This document shows, piece by piece, positions 1,618 to 11,201 of a stretch of DNA of 31,472 nucleotides. Every line of letters begins with the position of its first letter. Positions within the stretch are counted from its first letter, which is position 1. The DNA comes from a virus. Its lineage: Duplodnaviria > Heunggongvirae > Uroviricota > Caudoviricetes. The stretch spans positions 1 to 31,472 of IMG/VR virus record IMGVR_UViG_2585427730_000006. One strand, given 5' to 3'. The position numbers were made by a program, and so were the translations under genes. Under the pieces are notes generated by a model. The model had not been told where the DNA came from. It saw only the letters and a list, made by a program, of their open reading frames with translations, and did not search any database.

Positions 1618-2313
1618 TTAATCACTTAAGGAATGAAGTGAGGCTCGTTGTGCAGAGGTTAAGCTAAGGAGGATTTTTTCTCGATACTCAGGTGCAAAGG
1701 AAAAGAAAACATCAGGAAAAATTCTTATGATAGTTGATATCATAGTCTTAACCACCTTATCAATCACCTTCGAAATATTATCTATTTTAACCAAGTCTAT
1801 TTCGGGAAAAACATTTAAAGCTTTTATGTGAGCCATTTCTTTTACAGTAGCTGTATGTACGTGACTGCATAACGAAGAGTATTCAGCTTTTAAAGTTTCA
1901 TGTAGTAGAGGATTTTTTTTGAAGACAGGATGTTCCCCAGTTTGTTCAATTACCTTAAACAATGATTTTTCTTCAAGTATTGAAGGATCTAGTAAGCAAC
2001 CGATTGATTTTAAAGAATTTTCAATATAACTTCGCATCATTAGATTTGCTGGTTTGTATGCACCATTTATAACCATAAACATAGCTGTACCAAGGTCAGA
2101 TGAAGCTTCTTGCAATCGCTCCAATGAGTTGGCGTCTATTTTCTCCTTGGAGAAATGATACAAACAGTAAACAAGGCACATAAAAGAATAATATCTCTTA
2201 TGTATCATGCTTATTTTCCCTCTTGAGTTAATATTCTCGAAAACATTTTTTAATTTATATTCAGAGAAATAAGTAACTAACTCAGTGAAATCGCTGTTTA
2301 CTTCTCTCGACAT
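1618..2313 (-). CDS. Hypothetical protein, 231 aa, third gene of the ParA-like operon
   Basis: Long ORF in AT-rich DNA, 2 nt from the upstream gene stop, same strand; no recognisable motif. Confidence 0.7.
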   Translation of the reverse strand: MSREVNSDFTELVTYFSEYKLKNVFENINSRGKISMIHKRYYSFMCLVYCLYHFSKEKIDANSLERLQEASSDLGTAMFMVINGAYKPANLMMRSYIENSLKSIGCLLDPSILEEKSLFKVIEQTGEHPVFKKNPLLHETLKAEYSSLCSHVHTATVKEMAHIKALNVFPEIDLVKIDNISKVIDKVVKTMISTIIRIFPDVFFSFAPEYREKILLSLTSAQRASLHSLSD

Positions 2314-2315
2314 TG

Positions 2316-2822
2316 TTAGTCCTTATTGAATATATCTTTTATAACTTCATTCCAGTCATATATCTCATTTTGAGCGCTAGAAAGGTTCTTCCTCTCTTTT
2401 ATTCTACTCAAAACTAGAGGGTTATTTGACATTGAATTGATAATATTATAAGCCTTACCTAAATCGGATGAGTTTTTCTCGTGAACGTCACACACGATTA
2501 TGCCGATCATTTCCTCTCTAGATCTTTTTTCAGGCCTGCTGATTTCGATACCTAACATGCGTGCAAAATCATCTATATCTTTATTTTTTTGGAAGAGATC
2601 TTTGTCTAATAAAATCCTCGGAAGATACCCAACAAGGAAACCTTTAATATCATTTTTTTTGGACTTTGAATTTCTTTCGTTAACTTCTAAATTATCAGTA
2701 TAACTATCTTGAAGTAATTCAATAAAGTTGATTCTTGATAATTTTTTTGAAATAAAGGAAAACTCCTCTAAAAAGTTTAACAGTTGCTTAATTTCTTTTG
2801 AGTTATTTTTTTTGTCAGTCAT
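2316..2822 (-). CDS. Hypothetical protein, 168 aa, Lys/Asn-rich, second gene of the ParA-like operon
   Basis: ORF whose start overlaps the ParA-like stop by 4 bp (ATGA), suggesting translational coupling; no recognisable motif. Confidence 0.7.
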   Translation of the reverse strand: MTDKKNNSKEIKQLLNFLEEFSFISKKLSRINFIELLQDSYTDNLEVNERNSKSKKNDIKGFLVGYLPRILLDKDLFQKNKDIDDFARMLGIEISRPEKRSREEMIGIIVCDVHEKNSSDLGKAYNIINSMSNNPLVLSRIKERKNLSSAQNEIYDWNEVIKDIFNKD

Positions 2823-3649
2823 AAGTCACCTACTCTAGAGAGAAGTTCGTCAGTAATTTTAGACAGCGAAAACTTCATATCCTCATCCGTTAAATTGTTA
2901 ATAAATAAGCCTCTTGTTTGATTTCTTGCCAACTCAGTACGTTTGCTCAAATATGATTTAAAGATCTTATTACGCCAACGTTTTTGATTATTGAAGTAAC
3001 GAAGACTTTCCTCATATAAATTACTATTACCTTCAACCATATTAAAAACTATGCCCGCACATTCAATCTTAAGATCGAAATTTTCTCTCTTCTCATTTAT
3101 AATGCTATCTAATAGATCGATACCAGTGATCGAAAGAGGATCGGGTTTGGCTGGAATGAGGTAATAATCAGATGCAATTAATGCGCTGGACATCCAAACT
3201 GATGGGGTTGGTGGGGTATCAATTATGACATAATCATAGTCATTTTCATGGATTTTAAGAAAGCGTCTAAGCTTGTTTTCTATCCCTTCTCCTGGTTTCA
3301 TTTCAATTTTATATAGCCCAAGGCTTCCGGGAACAATGTGAAAATTATCATTTAATTGAATTGGTGTTATATCGGCTAATTCTTTAGGTGTGTTAACTAA
3401 AGGACCAGTCATTGTAGATAGTCGAATTTTTGAACTATAAAAAATATCACATATGCTATCGCCTCCGCTTTTCATATGTGCAACATATTTGCTTGTATCC
3501 ATTACACATTGCGTTGCGTTAAATTGTGGGTCGATATCTATTAATAATATTTTTTGCCCAAGTTTATCTGAAAGATGATTAGCAATATTGGTAGCCAATG
3601 TTGACTTACCAACGCCACCTTTCATATTGATTAAGCTAATAACTTTCAA
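2819..3649 (-). CDS. ParA/Soj/MinD-family P-loop ATPase, 276 aa
   Basis: Deviant Walker A KGGVGKST at residues 10-17, LIDIDPQ motif, hydrophobic strand ending in DTPP (YVIIDTPP); no N-terminal HTH extension (type Ib-like architecture). Confidence 0.85.
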   Translation of the reverse strand: MKVISLINMKGGVGKSTLATNIANHLSDKLGQKILLIDIDPQFNATQCVMDTSKYVAHMKSGGDSICDIFYSSKIRLSTMTGPLVNTPKELADITPIQLNDNFHIVPGSLGLYKIEMKPGEGIENKLRRFLKIHENDYDYVIIDTPPTPSVWMSSALIASDYYLIPAKPDPLSITGIDLLDSIINEKRENFDLKIECAGIVFNMVEGNSNLYEESLRYFNNQKRWRNKIFKSYLSKRTELARNQTRGLFINNLTDEDMKFSLSKITDELLSRVGDL

Positions 3650-4156: not shown

Positions 4157-4662
4157 ACTTCCGCTTCTCGCTCAAAGCGGACTAGAAGGTTAGCTTGCGT
4201 CGGACTTGGCGTATTTAAAGAAGTACTGGTGGTGACTGGTTGTTGTGTTCCATTTCTACAGAACAAAATCACAGAAACTATACCCAATAGTTGTATCTCA
4301 TCAATGATGAGACAGCCTCATATTTATCAGGACTGGTGTACGTCCAATACAGGAGGTTGTCGTGCTGGTTCTCAAATGTGCGCTGGCTATTGCAGCTGTA
4401 ATGGCAATTTATTGTCTTGCTGTTGTTCTTATGGATCGCCTTTCTGATTGATTTTATATTGGCGAGGTAACGGGAGTTAAGTAGAATGGCTGCGGGTGCT
4501 TGAGGCTATCTGTCTCAGGCATGAACACCAAAGGCAGATAGAGAAAAGCCCCAGTTAACATTACGCGTCCTGCAAGACGCTTAACATTAATCTGAGGCTC
4601 AATCTATGAACGGCAAATCTAGGTTAGCCTCTTACGTGCCGAAAGGCAAGGAGAAGCAGGCT

Positions 4663-4818
4663 ATGAAGCAGCAAAAGGCGATGTTAATCGCCCTGATCGT
4701 CATCTGTTTAACCGTCATAGTGACGGCACTGGTAACGAGGAAAGACCTCTGCGAGGTACGAATCCGAACCGGCCAGACGGAGGTCGCTGTCTTCACAGCT
4801 TACGAACCTGAGGAGTAA
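4663..4818 (+). CDS. hokD: Hok/Gef-family type I toxin, 51 aa, HokD/RelF-like
   Basis: Translation MKQQKAMLIALIVICLTVIVTALVTRKDLCEVRIRTGQTEVAVFTAYEPEE has the Hok signature (single TM, conserved Cys, C-terminal AVF.AYE); AAGGAG RBS 11 nt upstream. The in-frame upstream extension from 4606 in the ORF track is probably not the real start. Confidence 0.8.
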   Translation: MKQQKAMLIALIVICLTVIVTALVTRKDLCEVRIRTGQTEVAVFTAYEPEE

Positions 4819-6323: not shown

Positions 6324-6695
6324 ATGCGTATAGAGTTTGTTTTGCCTTCCCCGCCGACGGTGAACACCTACTGGCGTCGTCGTGGCAGCACATATTTTGT
6401 ATCAAAAGCCGGTGAGCGTTATCGCCGGGATGTGGCACTTATTGTCCGCCAGCAGCGGCTGAAATTAAACCTGTCCGGAAGGCTGGCAATAAAAATTACT
6501 GCAGAGCCGCCGGATAAGCGCCGTCGGGACCTGGACAATATCCTGAAAGCACCGCTGGATGCACTGACGCATGCGGGGCTTCTCATAGACGACGAGCAGT
6601 TTGATGAAATCAATATTGTGCGCGGTAAGCTCGTTCCTGGTGGTCGGCTGGGCGTGAAGATTTGCGAAATTAGAGGTGATAGTAATGGGGCGTGA
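6324..6695 (+). CDS. rusA: RusA-family Holliday junction resolvase
   Basis: 123 aa; catalytic-region motif RRRDLDN and overall resemblance to RusA; AAGAGG RBS upstream of ATG 6324. Confidence 0.85.
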   Translation: MRIEFVLPSPPTVNTYWRRRGSTYFVSKAGERYRRDVALIVRQQRLKLNLSGRLAIKITAEPPDKRRRDLDNILKAPLDALTHAGLLIDDEQFDEINIVRGKLVPGGRLGVKICEIRGDSNGA

Positions 6696-7038
6696 TATGT
6701 ATGAGGTTTTAGACCGCTGGGGGGCATGGGCTGCAGCAGAAAATAGTGGTGTCGATTGGCAACCGATAGCAGCGGGCTTCAAGGGGCTTTTACCTCATGG
6801 TAAAAAGTCACGGATTCAGTGTGATGATGACGAAGGCATTATGATAGACAGTTGTGTGGCTCGGTTGAGAAGGTATAAACCAGAGGAATATGAGCTCATC
6901 ATAGCCCACTTTGTTATTGGTATCTCATTACGCACTATTGCCAAAAAGAGAAGGTGTTCAGATGGCACGATTAGAAAGGAATTACAAACTGCAATTGGTT
7001 TTGTAGAGGGTATTACGAGCGTTATTGCATGTAAATAA
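6685..7038 (+). CDS. Late antiterminator Q, QuuD-type
   Basis: Translation (MGRDMYEVLDRWGAWAAAEN...WQPIAAGFKGLLP...CDDDEG...CVARL...CSDGTIRKELQ) matches the pattern of DLP12 QuuD. Start taken as ATG 6685; GTG 6676 is an alternative. Overlaps the rusA 3' end. Confidence 0.75.
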   Translation: MGRDMYEVLDRWGAWAAAENSGVDWQPIAAGFKGLLPHGKKSRIQCDDDEGIMIDSCVARLRRYKPEEYELIIAHFVIGISLRTIAKKRRCSDGTIRKELQTAIGFVEGITSVIACK

Positions 7039-7042
7039 AAGC

Positions 7043-7072
7043 TAAAAGCCACCGTAGTGGCTTTTAGCATTT
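7043..7072. terminator. Bidirectional-looking hairpin immediately after Q
   Basis: aaaagccac-cgta-gtggctttt with A-run on one side and T-run on the other; could terminate both Q (+) and the convergent 427-aa gene (-). Confidence 0.5.
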
Positions 7073-7244
7073 TAGGATTGTGCAGGTAATGTTTTGTTCA
7101 ATTTAGTAAAGAAGTTAGATTGGCTTGTTACAGTACGTCGACTCTTTCCAGAAGTACTCAACTGAAAGAAATCATTGATGCTTTTGGGTTGAGTTCTTTC
7201 ATAGGCTTGCTTAAGTGACATGTGTTCCCCTTGTCTATTTGTTG

Positions 7245-8528
7245 CTATGACCGTGAAAAGTAGTGATGGTTCAGTTCTTTTGCAAAATAGTGCTTACGTT
7301 TAACCCAGATAAAACCATCAGCTTTAGAAATGATTGCAACATCTATGGGGCCTCCCACTGTTTCAGTATCATCGGAGACCTTGCGCTTGAAAGCGGTTAA
7401 ATTTACTAATGATTCAGCCATATAAGCTAAATCTTGCTTGGGTAAAAACTCGATCATATTTACGACTTTGTCAACATAGTTTTCTCGGACAAAGCTATCA
7501 ATACGCCCCTTGCAATCGGAAACAGTTCTGCGCACTACATCAACTATAGCATCCTTGGCTCCTTCGATATCTGAAGTGGGCACCAAATCTGTGATTACTG
7601 AATCAATACCATCAAGTAAATCGCCGATAGAACGTTGATACTCAGCATGAAGATTTTGGATAAGATGTGAACTAGCTCCTTGCATGAAAGCAGAAACTTC
7701 ATCCTCTTGCGCAAAGGGAGTCACGCCGCAATTAGGAGTGATGCAGCACTTGTCAGCATCTGTGGTTTTCCTTATTTTATCATTAAAGAAGCCACAAACT
7801 TCATATGATAATACTTTAGGGTAATAGTCTTTATCGCCATAACCTGCAATCACAATCCCAGAGACGGAACCAATATCACTTTGCTTGCATATCATAGCTG
7901 CCAATACATCACTAACTGCTTTTGTCAACTGTGGAGTTATGGATATTGAATCAAAGTCACTAAACTTTTGAGCAATGATGCGTTGGGTAATTGATGAAGC
8001 ATAGGTTTGGGCTGCTTGTTCATCATCCGGAGTAAAACCATCAAAGTAATTAATATCAGATAATTTTGTAAGGAGATCGTTGCAATAATTCGTGAGGTCT
8101 GTAACAAATTGATTCTTATCGAAGTTAACGAGATATGTTGGTTCGAGACCTTCAGAAAAAGCATCAACAAGCATGCTGAATACAATCTCGCTCAGGAAGT
8201 GATAAAGATGAGCCTCACGCATACCTGGTGTGATGATTGATTTAGCTGACTGTAGATAATTGAAGAAATCCTCAGCATATTCCTCCAAAGAGTCAAAACA
8301 TTTAGAGCCTAAATCCTTTCTATAAGCCTTAATGATAAGCTCCCATGGAGCTGTGCAGAGATCACCAGTTCCATATACCATCAAACCTACAGGATGATGT
8401 TTAGTGAGAGCGAAAAGCTTTTCAGCGCCATTATAGATTTTATGTTTGCCGCCTCCAGAAATCGTTACAGCTGAATCTGCGGCTAAAGCTACTGCGGTCT
8501 TGTTAAATACGGCTATTTCTGCTGTCAT
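7245..8528 (-). CDS. Hypothetical protein, 427 aa; possible divergent proteasome-beta/HslV-like Ntn hydrolase with large insertions (inference only)
   Basis: Long ORF in visibly lower-GC DNA, opposite to late-gene orientation. N-terminus MTAEIAVFNKTAVALAADSAVT...GAEKLF aligns by eye with the proteasome-beta/HslV N-terminal segment (Thr1, acidic residue 17, Lys before LF); C-terminal GGPIDVAIISKADGF resembles the proteasome-beta GG.IDVAVI.KDG motif. Confidence 0.8.
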   Translation of the reverse strand: MTAEIAVFNKTAVALAADSAVTISGGGKHKIYNGAEKLFALTKHHPVGLMVYGTGDLCTAPWELIIKAYRKDLGSKCFDSLEEYAEDFFNYLQSAKSIITPGMREAHLYHFLSEIVFSMLVDAFSEGLEPTYLVNFDKNQFVTDLTNYCNDLLTKLSDINYFDGFTPDDEQAAQTYASSITQRIIAQKFSDFDSISITPQLTKAVSDVLAAMICKQSDIGSVSGIVIAGYGDKDYYPKVLSYEVCGFFNDKIRKTTDADKCCITPNCGVTPFAQEDEVSAFMQGASSHLIQNLHAEYQRSIGDLLDGIDSVITDLVPTSDIEGAKDAIVDVVRRTVSDCKGRIDSFVRENYVDKVVNMIEFLPKQDLAYMAESLVNLTAFKRKVSDDTETVGGPIDVAIISKADGFIWVKRKHYFAKELNHHYFSRS

Positions 8529-8636
8529 TTTTTACATAGGGTTTATATGTTGTGTAATGAGAAAAATACAAAAAAATTAACGCGTACGCAAAAATTCTTG
8601 TAATCTGTTAAGAGTGGTTACTTCGCCACACAGCTT

Positions 8637-8668
8637 AAACCCGCCGTCGAGCGGGTTTTTTTGTACCT
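8637..8668 (+). terminator. Rho-independent terminator on the + strand
   Basis: aaacccgc-cgtcga-gcgggttt followed by tttttt; the upstream neighbour is on the other strand, so the terminated transcript is unidentified. Confidence 0.5.
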
Positions 8669-8784
8669 GTAAACTTGGTGCAGTACGGTAAACACGCTGG
8701 TGGTAGTGAATACTGACTTTTTATCTTGCTGGCTTTTTAGACAAGAGTTATTGGTATGTCATGTTAACCAGAAGGGAAAAAGAC

Positions 8785-8979
8785 ATGCTAAAACAGCAAG
8801 ATATGACAGAAACGGCGAAAGTTGTTTTTAATGAATTAAGCATCGAACCGGCAACAGTCGGGGAGATTGCACAAAACACATACCTTTCACGCGAACGCTG
8901 TCAGTTAATACTGACCCAGTTGGTTATGGCGGGGCTGGCAGATTACCAGTTCGGCTGTTACAGACGTCTTCAGCAATGA
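8785..8979 (+). CDS. Small hypothetical protein (64 aa from ATG 8785), possible HTH/winged-helix regulator
   Basis: ORF directly upstream of the methyltransferase gene; purine-rich stretch before ATG 8785; segment ATVGEIAQNTYLSRERCQLILTQL resembles an HTH. Start uncertain (track ORF begins at 8761). Confidence 0.4.
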   Translation: MLKQQDMTETAKVVFNELSIEPATVGEIAQNTYLSRERCQLILTQLVMAGLADYQFGCYRRLQQ

Positions 8980-9128
8980 AGGGCTTTTAATTTGTGAAAA
9001 TGGGCGGCTGGTGGGTGTTGGTAGCACCTGCCAGCCATTCGCTCATGCTTACTGGTCACAAGCGAACCACGGCCCACTGCTTTAGCGCAAAAGCAGAGTG
9101 AGCCTACCAGAGTTACGCTTACTGATCC

Positions 9129-10175
9129 ATGAAAAATACTGTAAAAATAAACAGTGTTGATTTAATCAACGCTGATTGCCTGCATTTTATTCAGTCCCTG
9201 CCTGATGATTCCATTGACCTGATTGTTACCGATCCGCCTTACTTCAAGGTGAAACCCAACGGTTGGGACAATCAGTGGAAAGGGGACGAAGATTACCTTA
9301 AGTGGCTGGACCACTGTCTGGCCCAGTTCTGGCGGGTGTTGAAACCTGCCGGAAGCCTTTACCTGTTCTGTGGGCATCGCCTGGCATCTGATATCGAAAT
9401 CATGATGCGTGAACGCTTTAATGTGCTGAACCACATTATCTGGGCGAAGCCGTCCGGACGCTGGAACGGATGCAACAAGGAAAGCCTGCGGGCGTATTTC
9501 CCGGCAACAGAGCGCATTCTGTTTGCTGAACATTATCAGGGGCCATACCAGCCCAAAAATGACGGCTATGCGGCAAAGGGGCGCGAGCTTAAACAGTGCG
9601 TCATGGCCCCGCTGATTTCTTACTTTCGTGATGCGCGAGAATCTCTGGGAATAACATCAAAACAGATAGCGGAAGCCACCGGAAAGAAAAACATGGCGTC
9701 ACACTGGTTTGGTGCCAGTCAGTGGCAGTTGCCGAACGAGGCTGATTACAAAAAACTTCAGGCGCTGTTCGCGCGTGTTGCAGCAGAAAAACACCAGCGC
9801 GGGGAGCTGGAAAAGCCGCACCACCAGCTGGTCAGCACATACAGTGAACTGAACCGGCAATATGCCAGCCTGCAGGAGGAGTATAAATCCCTGCGGCGTT
9901 ATTTTTCCGTATCAGCTGCTGTTCCGTATACGGATGTCTGGACGCACAAGCCTGTGCAGTATTATCCAGGCAAACATCCCTGTGAAAAACCGGCAGATAT
10001 GTTGCGTCAGATAATTACTGCCAGCAGTCGCCCCGGTGATTTGGTCGCTGATTTTTTTATGGGGTCTGGCTCAACAATAAAAGCAGCACTTTCACTGGGA
10101 CGTCGCGCAATTGGCGTGGAACTGGAAGAAGAGAGATTTAATCAGACTGTAACTGAAATAAAAAATAATCGTTAA
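9129..10175 (+). CDS. Orphan DNA methyltransferase, beta-class (N6-adenine or N4-cytosine)
   Basis: Motif IV DPPY (IVTDPPYF) near the N-terminus and motif I FxGxG (FFMGSGST) near the C-terminus, the circularly permuted beta-class order; no adjacent restriction endonuclease gene visible. Confidence 0.85.
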   Translation: MKNTVKINSVDLINADCLHFIQSLPDDSIDLIVTDPPYFKVKPNGWDNQWKGDEDYLKWLDHCLAQFWRVLKPAGSLYLFCGHRLASDIEIMMRERFNVLNHIIWAKPSGRWNGCNKESLRAYFPATERILFAEHYQGPYQPKNDGYAAKGRELKQCVMAPLISYFRDARESLGITSKQIAEATGKKNMASHWFGASQWQLPNEADYKKLQALFARVAAEKHQRGELEKPHHQLVSTYSELNRQYASLQEEYKSLRRYFSVSAAVPYTDVWTHKPVQYYPGKHPCEKPADMLRQIITASSRPGDLVADFFMGSGSTIKAALSLGRRAIGVELEEERFNQTVTEIKNNR

Positions 10176-10343: not shown

Positions 10344-10419
<76 letters not shown>

Positions 10420-10422
10420 TAT

Positions 10423-10497
<75 letters not shown>

Positions 10498-10855
10498 GAG
10501 AAACAAGCCTTATTGTATCGTTGCACTGGCGTATTTTTTATTGCGTGGGAGCAGGTTGTTTTTAAAAGGCATTCTGTTTTCTGGCTGTGATTTGAGGTCG
10601 GTTATAGCCACAGTGCTGTTTTTTACACCACTGGAATGGTGCATTATCGGTGGAAATTGAGCATTTCCTGACAGGGGCCGATGATGCACTATCCCGGTGT
10701 TGTAAATAACACTACAGAGGTGTTCCTCAGTGCGAGGGTGGTTTATGTAACTGTTTAGCGGGAAACCACAGTATTCATGGAGAGATGGATACTTCGGGGG
10801 GCACCCGACACCTCTGTTTTTCTACTACAAAAATGATTCATCTCTGGCATTTTTC

Positions 10856-10884
10856 AACCGCCGTTCCGGGCGGTTTTTTTTATT
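10856..10884 (+). terminator. Rho-independent terminator in the tRNA-to-lysis intergenic region
   Basis: aaccgcc-gttccg-ggcggtt followed by an 8-T run. Confidence 0.6.
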
Positions 10885-11201
10885 CTGAACTCAGAAAAGA
10901 ATACACGGGCATTGATATTACCCGTGTGGCAAGGCCATGAAAGCCAATAATGAACTGAGCGCAAAAAAAGCGCGGCTGTCGGATTAACGCCGCGGGACAA
11001 AGTCCGTGAAGAAGAATAAGCATCAGTCTCCTCCAGGAGACGATTTGATATTACTAAGCTTTAAAAATGGTTTAAACCCCCGGATTAACCTTAATTTCAG
11101 ATAAGCTTTATTTCATTTTCTCCGAGCCACGTCAGGCGCATATCACATCAGATAACACCACATAAAAGGTATCTGCGGGTGCCTTTCACGGGGTGTTTTT
11201 T

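What the first reader, a model, noticed from the sequence alone, without database searches (positions are those of the whole stretch)
8785..10175. Orphan beta-class DNA methyltransferase with an upstream small HTH-like ORF
The methyltransferase has DPPY before FxGxG, the beta-class order, and no restriction endonuclease partner is visible nearby. The small upstream ORF with an HTH-like segment could be a controller-type regulator. Orphan phage methyltransferases commonly protect phage DNA from host restriction or alter host epigenetics.
Basis: partly seen in the sequence, partly recalled or inferred. Interest (0 to 1): 0.4.

Follow-up and report, generated by a model that had tools for sequence, protein, structure and literature searches.

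The report
Phage M.EcoGII-type methylase with conserved RNA leader
The gene is a close relative of M.EcoGII, the known phage enzyme that methylates every adenine regardless of sequence, placed so that it should switch on only late in phage growth; the apparently new part is a conserved folded RNA just upstream of it, usually accompanied by a tiny winged-helix protein.

Summary
ORF 9129-10175 is a beta-class N6-adenine DNA methyltransferase (DPPY before FxGxG; Pfam PF01555, E=5e-45). ORF 8785-8979 is a real 64-aa gene that folds as a winged helix. No restriction gene lies nearby.

The enzyme is not an unknown orphan. It is 83% identical to M.EcoGII, the characterised non-specific adenine methylase, and 89% and 73% identical to two reconstructed ancestors reported to lack site specificity.

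The pair sits just downstream of a promoter-like site and a strong terminator that follow the Q antiterminator gene. That makes it the first cassette of the lambdoid late operon, which would explain why M.EcoGII is silent in lysogens. The likely role is blanket methylation of progeny DNA against host restriction.

The small protein is not a C-type controller: the fold is different and there is no restriction gene to control.

The unexpected result is the 149-nt spacer. It is better conserved than either flanking gene and folds into hairpins with compensatory changes in 26 of 30 pairs. It has no Rfam match. It precedes the methylase in 73 of 80 divergent metagenomic loci, several of which have no small ORF between terminator and leader.

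I read the spacer as an undescribed cis-regulatory leader for a toxic enzyme. Its mechanism is unknown.

The parts
6685..7038 (+). Q antiterminator gene, the inferred trans-activator of the late operon that contains the cassette
   Evidence: Pfam PF06530 Phage_antitermQ, E=1.3e-43. RefSeq annotates it as 'antiterminator Q family protein'.
8577..8606 (+). Candidate late promoter (pR'-like): TTAACG, about 18 nt, TAATCT. It is followed by a conserved initial transcribed sequence, GTTAAGAGTGGTTACT.
   Evidence: Found by eye and by conservation only. The block is shared with loci that carry a PF06530-type Q and differs in SfV, Kluyvera, Proteus and Plesiomonas loci. The consensus scan did not flag it, so it is inferred, not shown.
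8637..8665 (+). Strong intrinsic terminator (tR'-like): AAACCCGCCGTCGAGCGGGTTT followed by a T run
   Evidence: Terminator scan gives 8 pairs, 5 of them G-C, plus a T run. The homologous site is annotated as a rho-independent terminator in phage SfV. A hairpin plus T7-8 stands at the same place in all 9 aligned lineages. The 60-nt RNA 8609-8668 folds with z=-3.3.
8722..8784 (+). Conserved 5' leader of the small ORF: TTGCTG, 17 nt, TAYNTG, then GTCAC, then the ribosome-binding region
   Evidence: Invariant blocks across Escherichia, Salmonella, Kluyvera, Proteus and Plesiomonas. Whether this is a weak promoter or a hairpin is unresolved.
8785..8979 (+). 64-aa stand-alone winged-helix protein (phrog_331; named 'TrmB family regulator' in NCBI-sourced records), a frequent but dispensable partner of the methylase
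   Evidence: AlphaFold pLDDT 90.4. Foldseek places it among MarR, IclR, OMT-dimerisation and SelB winged helices, all at E>1e-3. Purifying selection is clear. It stands directly upstream of the methylase in 33 of 34 genome loci and 78 of 80 viral loci. Only 81 cluster representatives exist among 1.84 billion, nearly all 18-114 aa; none looks like a methylase fusion.
8993..9060 (+). Leader RNA domain 1, a long irregular hairpin. P1 pairs 8993-8997 with 9056-9060. P2 pairs 9000-9005 with 9041-9046. P3 pairs 9006-9017 with 9025-9036. An alternative helix, P4, pairs 9038-9043 with 9061-9066 and excludes P2.
   Evidence: MFE folds of the window, Proteus and metagenome homologues each give the same architecture. 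All 12 P3 pairs show compensatory changes. P1 and P2 are 95% and 97% paired on an alignment that was not fitted to them. P4 shows CG, UA, AU and UG at one pair.
9071..9104 (+). Leader RNA domain 2: hairpin GGCCCACUGCUUU..AAAGCAGAGUGAGCC
   Evidence: 9 of its 12 pairs show compensatory changes. The fold has z=-2.7.
9105..9128 (+). Unstructured stretch before the methylase AUG. It has no Shine-Dalgarno sequence. UGAUC at -6 to -2 is conserved within the Enterobacterales clade.
   Evidence: Read from the sequence and the alignments. The fold has z=+0.9.
9129..10175 (+). M.EcoGII-clade beta-class N6-adenine methyltransferase, 348 aa, predicted to lack sequence specificity
   Evidence: PF01555, E=5e-45. 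83% identical to M.EcoGII, 89% to Anc291 and 73% to SUPREM/Anc284. 84% identical to the phage 1720a-02 enzyme, which is itself 93% identical to M.EcoGII.
10344..10497 (+). tRNA-Thr(UGU) and tRNA-Gly(UCC), the next genes of the late region
   Evidence: ARAGORN and Rfam RF00005.

Best explanation
The window is a lambdoid prophage carried by enterotoxigenic and other E. coli strains. ORF 9129-10175 encodes an M.EcoGII-clade methylase that should methylate adenine N6 in any sequence context.

The cassette is the first unit of the late operon. It follows a promoter-like site (8577-8606) and a strong terminator (8637-8665) downstream of the Q antiterminator gene. In a lysogen, transcription should stop at the terminator, so the toxic enzyme stays off. 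After induction, Q-modified RNA polymerase should read through, the enzyme is made late, and replicated phage DNA is heavily methylated before packaging. That would blunt Type I, II and III restriction in the next host.

Between the terminator and the methylase lie a 64-aa winged-helix protein and a 149-nt structured leader RNA. The leader is the evolutionarily deeper partner of the methylase. It most likely sets how much enzyme is translated, or how stable the message is. Candidate mechanisms are two competing folds (P2 versus P4), protein binding, or RNase III processing. The winged-helix protein is an accessory nucleic-acid binder added in Enterobacterales.

Shown here: family membership, gene order, the terminator, conservation and covariation of the leader, and linkage of the parts. 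Inferred: Q dependence, timing, lack of specificity of this particular enzyme, the anti-restriction benefit, and every regulatory role of the leader and the small protein.
For: Enzyme identity. 83% to M.EcoGII, 89% to Anc291 and 73% to SUPREM/Anc284. The reference sequences come from PMC11551740 Table S1. Non-specific activity is reported for M.EcoGII (PMC5778455), and Anc291 and SUPREM are reported to retain it (PMC11551740). The nearest site-specific relative, M.PflMI, is only 27% identical to M.EcoGII. The alignment to M.EcoGII is ungapped up to about residue 273, which includes the charged linker that M.PflMI lacks.

Late-operon position. Q matches PF06530. The terminator is found by scan and is annotated in SfV. 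A terminator precedes the cassette in every lineage examined. The same order, Q then small ORF then methylase then tRNA, toxin or lysis genes, appears in SfV, phiP27, Stx2 phages, 1720a-02 and an LT-IIb phage. M.EcoGI/GII homologues are silent in lysogens, and overexpression slows growth (PMC5778455; PMC6602927).

Leader RNA. The spacer is 134-153 nt long in all intact genome loci. Its identity to the window is 65-87%, against 58-78% for the small ORF, 63-76% for the methylase and 35-60% for methylase third codon positions. The covariance model hits exactly once per locus, always in this spacer. Covariation: 26 of 30 pairs have double changes; 87.7% of cells are paired against 30-42% in slid controls; 0 of 500 shuffles reach the observed values. 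Many G-U pairs fix the RNA on the + strand. No Rfam family matches.

Linkage. The small ORF precedes the methylase in 33 of 34 and 78 of 80 loci. Leader plus methylase occur with no small ORF between terminator and leader in divergent loci.
Against: No activity, methylome or transcript data exist for this locus.

The promoter is weak by consensus and was not flagged by the scan.

A 1.5-kb reverse-strand insertion separates Q from the promoter here, so Q dependence rests on homology with related phages.

A conserved TTGCTG-N17-TAYNTG motif lies downstream of the terminator. If it is a promoter, expression would be partly independent of Q.

The covariation counts come from alignments fitted to the model, and related sequences inflate cell counts.

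Nothing links the winged-helix protein to the leader physically.

The M.EcoGII reference sequence was machine-read from a PDF and contains a few reading errors, so identities are good to about 1%.
Confidence: 0.7

Rival explanations
1. It is a remnant of a Type II restriction-modification system. The methylase would be site-specific, and the small ORF would be a C-type controller that once timed a restriction gene.
For: PADLOC's best model for the methylase is labelled 'Type II methyltransferase'. The small ORF has an HTH-containing fold and lies upstream.
Against: No restriction gene is adjacent in the window, in complete genomes or in the related loci whose gene content was read.

The enzyme is 83-89% identical to enzymes reported to lack specificity.

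The small ORF is a winged helix without any Xre-type HTH hit. No palindromic operator was found upstream of it.

The cassette position, first after the late terminator, is conserved across families.
Confidence: 0.03
2. The conserved spacer acts mainly at the DNA level. It could be a Chi-containing recombination or RecBCD-protection site, or an operator bound by the winged-helix protein. It would not be an RNA.
For: Chi (GCTGGTGG) occupies 9007-9014, inside the 5' arm of P3, and a second Chi lies at 8696-8703, both on the + strand. The window has 8 Chi sites against 1.4 expected. The 5' arm is invariant in Enterobacteriaceae while the 3' arm varies.
Against: Lineages that lack Chi keep the helix through compensatory changes, for example Proteus GACUGUAAAAGUG..CACCUUUACAGUC and metagenome CGCUGCAGCAUG..CAUGCUACAGC.

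Frequent G-U pairs would be A-C mismatches on the other strand and have no meaning in duplex DNA.

Covariation extends over three further helices. Chi may be a second function layered on the RNA.
Confidence: 0.1
3. The small winged-helix protein does not regulate the methylase. It has an independent late function, such as binding m6A-modified or single-stranded nucleic acid, shielding hypermethylated phage DNA from methylation-dependent nucleases, or acting on transcription elsewhere.
For: Leader plus methylase exist with no such ORF between terminator and leader. A likely distant homologue in L128 and L134 (hhalign E=6e-5, probability 65%) lies upstream of the promoter and terminator instead. 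Winged-helix domains are described as m6A sensors, judging from the titles and abstracts of PMC11037411 and bioRxiv 10.1101/2023.06.07.544091 listed (the papers themselves were not read). Foldseek also lists the RNA-binding SelB winged helix.
Against: Very tight adjacency and a fixed spacer in Enterobacterales argue for a functional tie to the methylase. There is no direct evidence for any ligand.
Confidence: 0.3
4. The enzyme's main target in vivo is RNA, either host or phage transcripts or its own leader, rather than phage DNA.
For: M.EcoGII and its reconstructed ancestors methylate RNA in vitro (PMC5778455; PMC11551740). A structured RNA is genetically tied to the gene.
Against: Initial rates on RNA are about 90-fold lower than on DNA for M.EcoGII (Table S3 of PMC11551740). 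Placement in the late operon before packaging fits DNA protection. No in vivo RNA data exist.
Confidence: 0.1

Closest known systems
M.EcoGII and M.EcoGI (E. coli O104:H4 C227-11 prophage methylases; Murray et al. 2018, PMC5778455)
   Same: Same beta-class architecture: DPPY, then an HTH-bundle target-recognition domain, then a charged linker, then FxGxG. 83% identity. Prophage location. The 93%-identical phage 1720a-02 enzyme has the same small ORF and leader upstream.
   Different: About 17% of residues differ, and activity and specificity of this allele are untested. The papers read here do not discuss the late-operon position, the small ORF or the leader RNA. A term search of PMC5778455 found no occurrence of 'upstream', and its bioinformatics and discussion sections do not mention them.
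Other phage anti-restriction DNA modification (T-even hydroxymethylcytosine and phage GATC methylases are cited in PMC5778455; T4 Dam, P1 Dam and Mu Mom are from general knowledge)
   Same: A phage-encoded modification made during lytic growth that protects progeny DNA.
   Different: Those methylases are site-specific, or the chemistry differs. Mom is controlled by the Com translational activator binding an mRNA hairpin, a precedent for RNA-level control (from general knowledge, not tested here).
C-protein (controller) restriction-modification regulation, e.g. C.PvuII and C.Csp231I
   Same: A small DNA-binding-type protein is encoded just upstream of a modification gene.
   Different: C proteins have Xre-type HTH folds, bind C-box palindromes and time a restriction gene. 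Here the fold is a winged helix, no C-box was found and there is no restriction gene.
Lambda-type late control: Q, pR', a short terminated RNA and tR'. Stx phages carry toxin genes in the same slot.
   Same: The order is Q gene, promoter-like site, a roughly 55-nt transcript ending at a strong terminator, then late genes. In relatives, stx or LT-II genes follow the same methylase cassette.
   Different: Here a 1.5-kb reverse-strand cargo gene is inserted between Q and the promoter. The promoter itself is only inferred.
Structured mRNA leaders that gate toxic or dose-sensitive genes: riboswitches, the ErmC methylase binding its own leader, RNase III sites in the lambda N and T7 leaders (general knowledge)
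   Same: A conserved 5' UTR structure with alternative pairings lies directly upstream of the regulated gene.
   Different: No Rfam family matches. No ligand, protein partner or cleavage site is known.

Membership tests
Beta-class N6/N4 amino-methyltransferases (Pfam PF01555) | Profile match above the curated cut-off | tested here: met
   E=5.2e-45, 154.5 bits against a cut-off of 26.7.
Beta-class N6/N4 amino-methyltransferases (Pfam PF01555) | Motif IV (DPPY) N-terminal to motif I (FxGxG), with the recognition domain between them | tested here: met
   DPPY at residues 35-38 and FMGSG at 310-314. The Pfam match spans residues 29-340 for 219 profile positions, so roughly 90 extra residues sit between the motifs.
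M.EcoGII clade (non-specific adenine methylases) | Sequence placement inside the clade bracketed by enzymes reported to lack specificity | tested here: met
   83% to M.EcoGII, 89% to Anc291 and 73% to SUPREM/Anc284. The site-specific M.PflMI is 27% identical to M.EcoGII.
M.EcoGII clade (non-specific adenine methylases) | Long charged interdomain linker, which is absent from M.PflMI | tested here: met
   The alignment to M.EcoGII is ungapped up to about residue 273, which includes the segment EKHQRGELEKPHHQLVSTYSELNRQY. The linker is described in PMC11551740.
M.EcoGII clade (non-specific adenine methylases) | Methylation of adenine in any sequence context | not testable with these tools
   Needs a methylome or an enzyme assay.
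M.EcoGII clade (non-specific adenine methylases) | Prophage-borne and silent in the lysogen | tested here: inconclusive
   The prophage location is met. Silence is only inferred from the upstream terminator and from the literature.
Type II restriction-modification system | A cognate restriction endonuclease gene adjacent to the methylase | tested here: not met
   None in the window or in the related loci whose gene content was read. The neighbours have no nuclease or PADLOC hit.
C-protein controllers | Xre-type HTH fold | tested here: not met
   There is no HTH_3-type hit. The model is a winged helix whose nearest folds are MarR, IclR and OMT winged helices.
C-protein controllers | C-box palindromic operators upstream of the C gene, and a downstream restriction gene | tested here: not met
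   No suitable palindrome was found in 8666-8784. There is no restriction gene.
TrmB family regulators (PF01978), the name used in NCBI-sourced records | Profile match above the cut-off | tested here: not met
   16.4 bits against a cut-off of 25.6. DprA_WH scores 17.2 against 22.9. The resemblance is at fold level only.
Any Rfam 15 RNA family (for the leader) | Covariance-model match | tested here: not met
   No hit in 8980-9128, even at E<=10. None at the gathering score. None in the leaders of six divergent loci at E<=1.
Lambdoid Q-dependent late operon | Q gene, then a promoter with a Q-utilisation site, then a terminator, then late genes | tested here: inconclusive
   Q, the terminator and the lysis genes are present. 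The promoter and Q site are inferred from conservation that tracks the Q type, and the promoter is not detected by the scan.

The most novel reading that the evidence does not exclude
The 149-nt leader would be a new class of cis-regulatory RNA dedicated to a promiscuous adenine methylase. It would act as a true switch between the P1-P2-P3 fold and the P4 fold. The switch would respond to a small molecule such as SAM or SAH, to the winged-helix protein, or to the methylase itself, which can methylate RNA. That would give feedback control of a toxic enzyme.
Probability: 0.2. Interest if true: 0.75.

Novelty: new member of a known kind. Interest (0 to 1): 0.5.

Why it matters
M.EcoGII is now a standard reagent for chromatin footprinting and for proximity methylation in long-read sequencing. 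Its natural regulation has been left at 'silent in the lysogen, probably switched on at induction'.

This locus gives a concrete, testable account. The gene is the first cassette behind the late terminator. It carries a deeply conserved structured leader and, in enterobacterial phages, a dedicated winged-helix partner.

About 23% of complete E. coli genomes carry DNA matching the small ORF-leader-methylase segment (1,228 of 5,426). The elements are therefore common, and they sit directly upstream of Shiga-toxin and LT-II toxin genes in some phages.

If the leader is a genuine switch, it adds a new RNA family and a handle for expressing this toxic enzyme.

Tried and rejected
M.EcoGIX was my first recalled lead for a non-specific phage methylase. 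It is plasmid-borne and a different enzyme, so I dropped it.

No solved structure is closely related: the best PDB sequence hit has E=3e-25 and covers only the catalytic core.

I checked the 427-aa reverse ORF (7245-8528) as a possible hidden restriction partner.
- It has no Pfam, NCBIfam or PADLOC hit.
- More than 6,000 homologues exist, all unnamed.
- The AlphaFold model is mediocre, pLDDT 68.7.
- Foldseek and a PDB profile search give only non-significant proteasome-beta/Anbu hits. hhalign against HslV has probability 0.1%.
- It was therefore not accepted as a nuclease, and nothing supports a restriction role.

A leader peptide in the spacer (AUG at 9000) was rejected. The reading frame ends after 7 codons in Kluyvera and after 18 codons in Proteus, with a different peptide sequence, against 33 here (sequences).

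A long-range hairpin pairing 8722-8731 with 8794-8803 is not kept in Proteus or Buttiauxella, so it was not adopted.

RNAalifold on the raw MAFFT alignment recovered only P1-P3 with weak covariation. Manual helices and a covariance-model realignment were needed.

The literature on Stx-phage late promoters (PMC6266700) and on prophage small RNAs (PMC4104026) does not mention the methylase cassette or its leader.

No fusion of the winged-helix domain to a methylase was found.
Full report
**Observation**

- ORF 9129-10175 (+) encodes 348 aa. It matches Pfam PF01555 at E=5.2e-45. DPPY lies at residues 35-38 and FxGxG at 310-314, which is the beta-class order.
- ORF 8785-8979 (+) encodes 64 aa and uses the RefSeq start. 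It is under clear purifying selection: 18-27 synonymous against 7-17 non-synonymous codon changes versus ten homologues, with differences concentrated at third positions.
- AlphaFold models the small protein as H1-strand-H2-H3-beta hairpin, a winged helix, at pLDDT 90.4. Foldseek places it among MarR, IclR, O-methyltransferase-dimerisation and SelB winged helices, none with E below 1e-3.

**What the methylase is**

The segment is 100% identical in nine complete E. coli genomes, mostly human isolates including strain ETEC-2265. The small ORF plus methylase pair is 82-92% identical in DNA to phages SfV, phiP27, several Stx2 phages, 1720a-02 and an LT-IIb phage.

Murray et al. (PMC5778455) describe M.EcoGII as a 349-aa prophage enzyme that methylates adenine in any context. 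It is silent in the lysogen and slows growth when overexpressed. They name phage 1720a-02 as carrying a very similar gene.

I took the M.EcoGII, Anc291 and SUPREM/Anc284 sequences from Table S1 of PMC11551740. The table was machine-read and contains a few reading errors.

| Comparison | Identity |
|---|---|
| Window enzyme vs M.EcoGII | 83% |
| Window enzyme vs Anc291 | 89% |
| Window enzyme vs SUPREM/Anc284 | 73% |
| Phage 1720a-02 enzyme vs M.EcoGII | 93% |
| M.PflMI (nearest site-specific relative) vs M.EcoGII | 27% |

Both reconstructed ancestors are reported to retain activity without site specificity. The charged interdomain linker that distinguishes the clade from M.PflMI aligns without gaps. 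Membership of the M.EcoGII clade is therefore well supported. Lack of specificity of this particular allele is an inference.

**Context**

Pfam identifies a Q antiterminator (6685-7038), two holins and a GH108 endolysin downstream. ARAGORN finds tRNA-Thr and tRNA-Gly at 10344-10497. This is a lambdoid late region.

A strong intrinsic terminator lies at 8637-8665. It corresponds to the terminator annotated in SfV. A hairpin plus T run precedes the cassette in every lineage I aligned, from Escherichia to Proteus and Plesiomonas, and in divergent metagenomic loci.

Upstream of the terminator lies a promoter-like TTAACG-18 nt-TAATCT and a conserved initial transcribed sequence. That sequence is shared only with loci whose Q is of the same Pfam type. 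The promoter was not flagged by the consensus scan, so it stays an inference.

The arrangement gives a simple reason for the reported silence in lysogens: transcription stops at 8665 unless Q is present.

No restriction gene is present. The only unexplained neighbour is a low-GC 427-aa reverse-strand ORF (7245-8528) inserted between Q and the promoter. It has no Pfam, NCBIfam or PADLOC hit. It has more than 6,000 unnamed homologues and only non-significant resemblance to proteasome-beta/Anbu proteins. Related prophages carry different unknown reverse-strand genes in the same gap.

**The small ORF**

A scan of one genome per species found 34 loci across Enterobacterales.

- In 33 of them an M.EcoGII-like methylase (60-95% identical) follows directly. 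The exception is a decayed remnant.
- Among 80 viral contigs found with the methylase, 78 have the small ORF. The other two are cut by contig ends.
- The family is narrow. Only 81 cluster representatives exist among 1.84 billion proteins. Nearly all are 18-114 aa, and none looks like a fusion to a methylase.

It is not a C protein. The fold is different, the TrmB and DprA_WH hits fall below their cut-offs, no operator palindrome was found, and there is no restriction gene.

**The spacer**

The gap between the two ORFs is 134-153 nt in all intact genome loci. It is more conserved than either gene.

| Region | Identity to the window |
|---|---|
| Spacer | 65-87% |
| Small ORF | 58-78% |
| Methylase | 63-76% |
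| Methylase third codon positions | 35-60% |

A covariance model built on 29 distinct spacers hits exactly once in each of 55 loci, always in this spacer. A metagenome scan seeded with the Plesiomonas enzyme gave 80 loci. The model finds the element in 73 of them, always ending at the methylase start codon or within a few bases of it.

On that broader alignment:
- 26 of 30 pairs show compensatory double changes.
- 87.7% of cells are paired, against 30-42% when partners are slid by 1-3 columns.
- No shuffle out of 500 reaches the observed values.

The structure has these parts:
- A long irregular hairpin made of P1 (8993-8997 with 9056-9060), P2 (9000-9005 with 9041-9046) and P3 (9006-9017 with 9025-9036).
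- A second hairpin at 9071-9104.
- An unstructured start region without a Shine-Dalgarno sequence.

P1 and P2 were not in the model, yet they are 95% and 97% paired. Independent MFE folds of the window, Proteus and a metagenome homologue give the same architecture. In the metagenome sequence P1 is formed by entirely different bases.

An alternative helix, P4 (9038-9043 with 9061-9066), excludes P2 and also covaries. Two conformers are therefore possible.

Frequent G-U pairs place the RNA on the + strand. Rfam 15 has no match in the window or in six divergent loci.

Caveats: the alignments are fitted to the model, and cell counts are not independent events.

**What travels with what**

In several divergent loci the terminator abuts the leader directly and no small ORF lies between them. 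Two loci (L128, L134) carry a likely distant homologue of the small protein upstream of the promoter instead (hhalign E=6e-5, probability 65%).

In E. coli genomes some megablast matches start exactly at the 5' edge of P1. One such locus still has a divergent small ORF ahead of it.

The core unit is therefore promoter, terminator, leader, methylase. The winged-helix gene is a frequent accessory in enterobacterial phages. DNA matching the segment is found in 1,228 of 5,426 complete E. coli genomes, and 464 carry at least 80% of the 616-nt query.

**Mechanism and rivals**

Best reading: a late, Q-gated, non-specific adenine methylase protects progeny DNA from restriction, and its dose is tuned by a structured leader.

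- I give low weight to a decayed restriction-modification system.
- A DNA-only role for the spacer is unlikely. Its P3 arm does contain Chi, and Chi sites are over-represented at 8 against 1.4 expected. But helices persist through compensatory change where Chi is absent.
- Whether the small protein regulates the methylase, binds the leader, or has a separate late function such as reading m6A remains open.
- A mainly RNA-directed role for the enzyme is possible but unsupported.

**Novelty**

The enzyme family is known and the orphan status is as described in the literature (PMC5778455, PMC6602927). I did not find, in Rfam or in the papers read, any description of the leader RNA, of the obligate position behind the late terminator, or of the winged-helix partner. 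These are candidate new regulatory parts of a known system.

Noticed in passing
window 7245-8528 (-): A low-GC (about 39%) 427-aa ORF is inserted between Q and the late promoter. Only the nine near-identical genomes carry it at this site. The family has more than 6,000 homologues of about 430 aa in Gammaproteobacteria and no Pfam or PADLOC hit. It has an invariant Met-Thr N-terminus, D18, S19, K37 and a C-terminal GGPIDVAIISK.DGF motif that resembles proteasome-beta/Anbu proteins, but every similarity test was non-significant.
   Followed up: partly
window 7039-8576; L004 1880-3500; L005 1325-3500: The gap between Q and the late promoter is a variable cargo site. It holds one reverse-strand gene here, two in L004 and three in L005. 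All of them are without Pfam or PADLOC matches. This may be a hotspot for uncharacterised accessory or defence genes.
   Followed up: partly
window 8696-8703 and 9007-9014 (+), plus six other sites: Chi (GCTGGTGG) occurs 8 times against 1.4 expected. Two + strand copies lie inside the cassette. The one at 9007 forms the invariant 5' arm of RNA helix P3 in Enterobacteriaceae, so RNA and DNA functions may overlap there.
   Followed up: partly
window 8722-8784: The 5' leader of the small ORF is itself highly conserved from Escherichia to Plesiomonas: TTGCTG, exactly 17 variable nt, TAYNTG, then GTCAC. It could be a weak internal promoter or a small hairpin (CUGG/CCAG). This is unresolved.
   Followed up: partly
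window 8609-8665 (+): The predicted short transcript from the late promoter to the terminator is about 55 nt. It folds well (z=-3.3) and has weak, sub-threshold Rfam similarity to isrK and P9, two sRNA families. It may be a stable small RNA like those described for Stx phages.
   Followed up: no
window 10498-11178: A roughly 680-nt stretch with no ORF of 60 aa or more lies between the tRNAs and the holin. In related phages, stx or LT-II toxin genes sit downstream of the same methylase and tRNA genes. It contains convergent terminator-like hairpins at 10856-10875 (+) and 10927-10903 (-), which recalls the convergent small-RNA pairs reported in O157 prophages (PMC4104026). No Rfam hit reaches threshold.
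   Followed up: partly
window 4494-4668 (+): A sok antitoxin RNA is detected (Rfam RF01794, 110 bits). RefSeq annotates hokD next to it. Together they form a hok/sok type I toxin-antitoxin locus in the prophage early region.
   Followed up: no
window 1618-3649 (-): A very low-GC block (31-38%) holds a ParA-like ATPase (PF13614) and two ORFs without any family match. It lies at the prophage edge next to chromosomal genes.
   Followed up: no
L128 1006-1233 and L134 1007-1234: In a divergent phage lineage a 75-aa likely homologue of the winged-helix protein lies upstream of a palindrome (GTGCGACCACGGTCGCAC), a promoter and a terminator. These are followed directly by the leader RNA and the methylase. 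The partnership is kept but the gene order is different.
   Followed up: partly
L127 and L129, about 1300-1500: Two metagenomic methylase loci have the same layout of promoter, terminator, leader and methylase. Their leader is GC-rich and the covariance model does not recognise it. It may be a second leader type.
   Followed up: no
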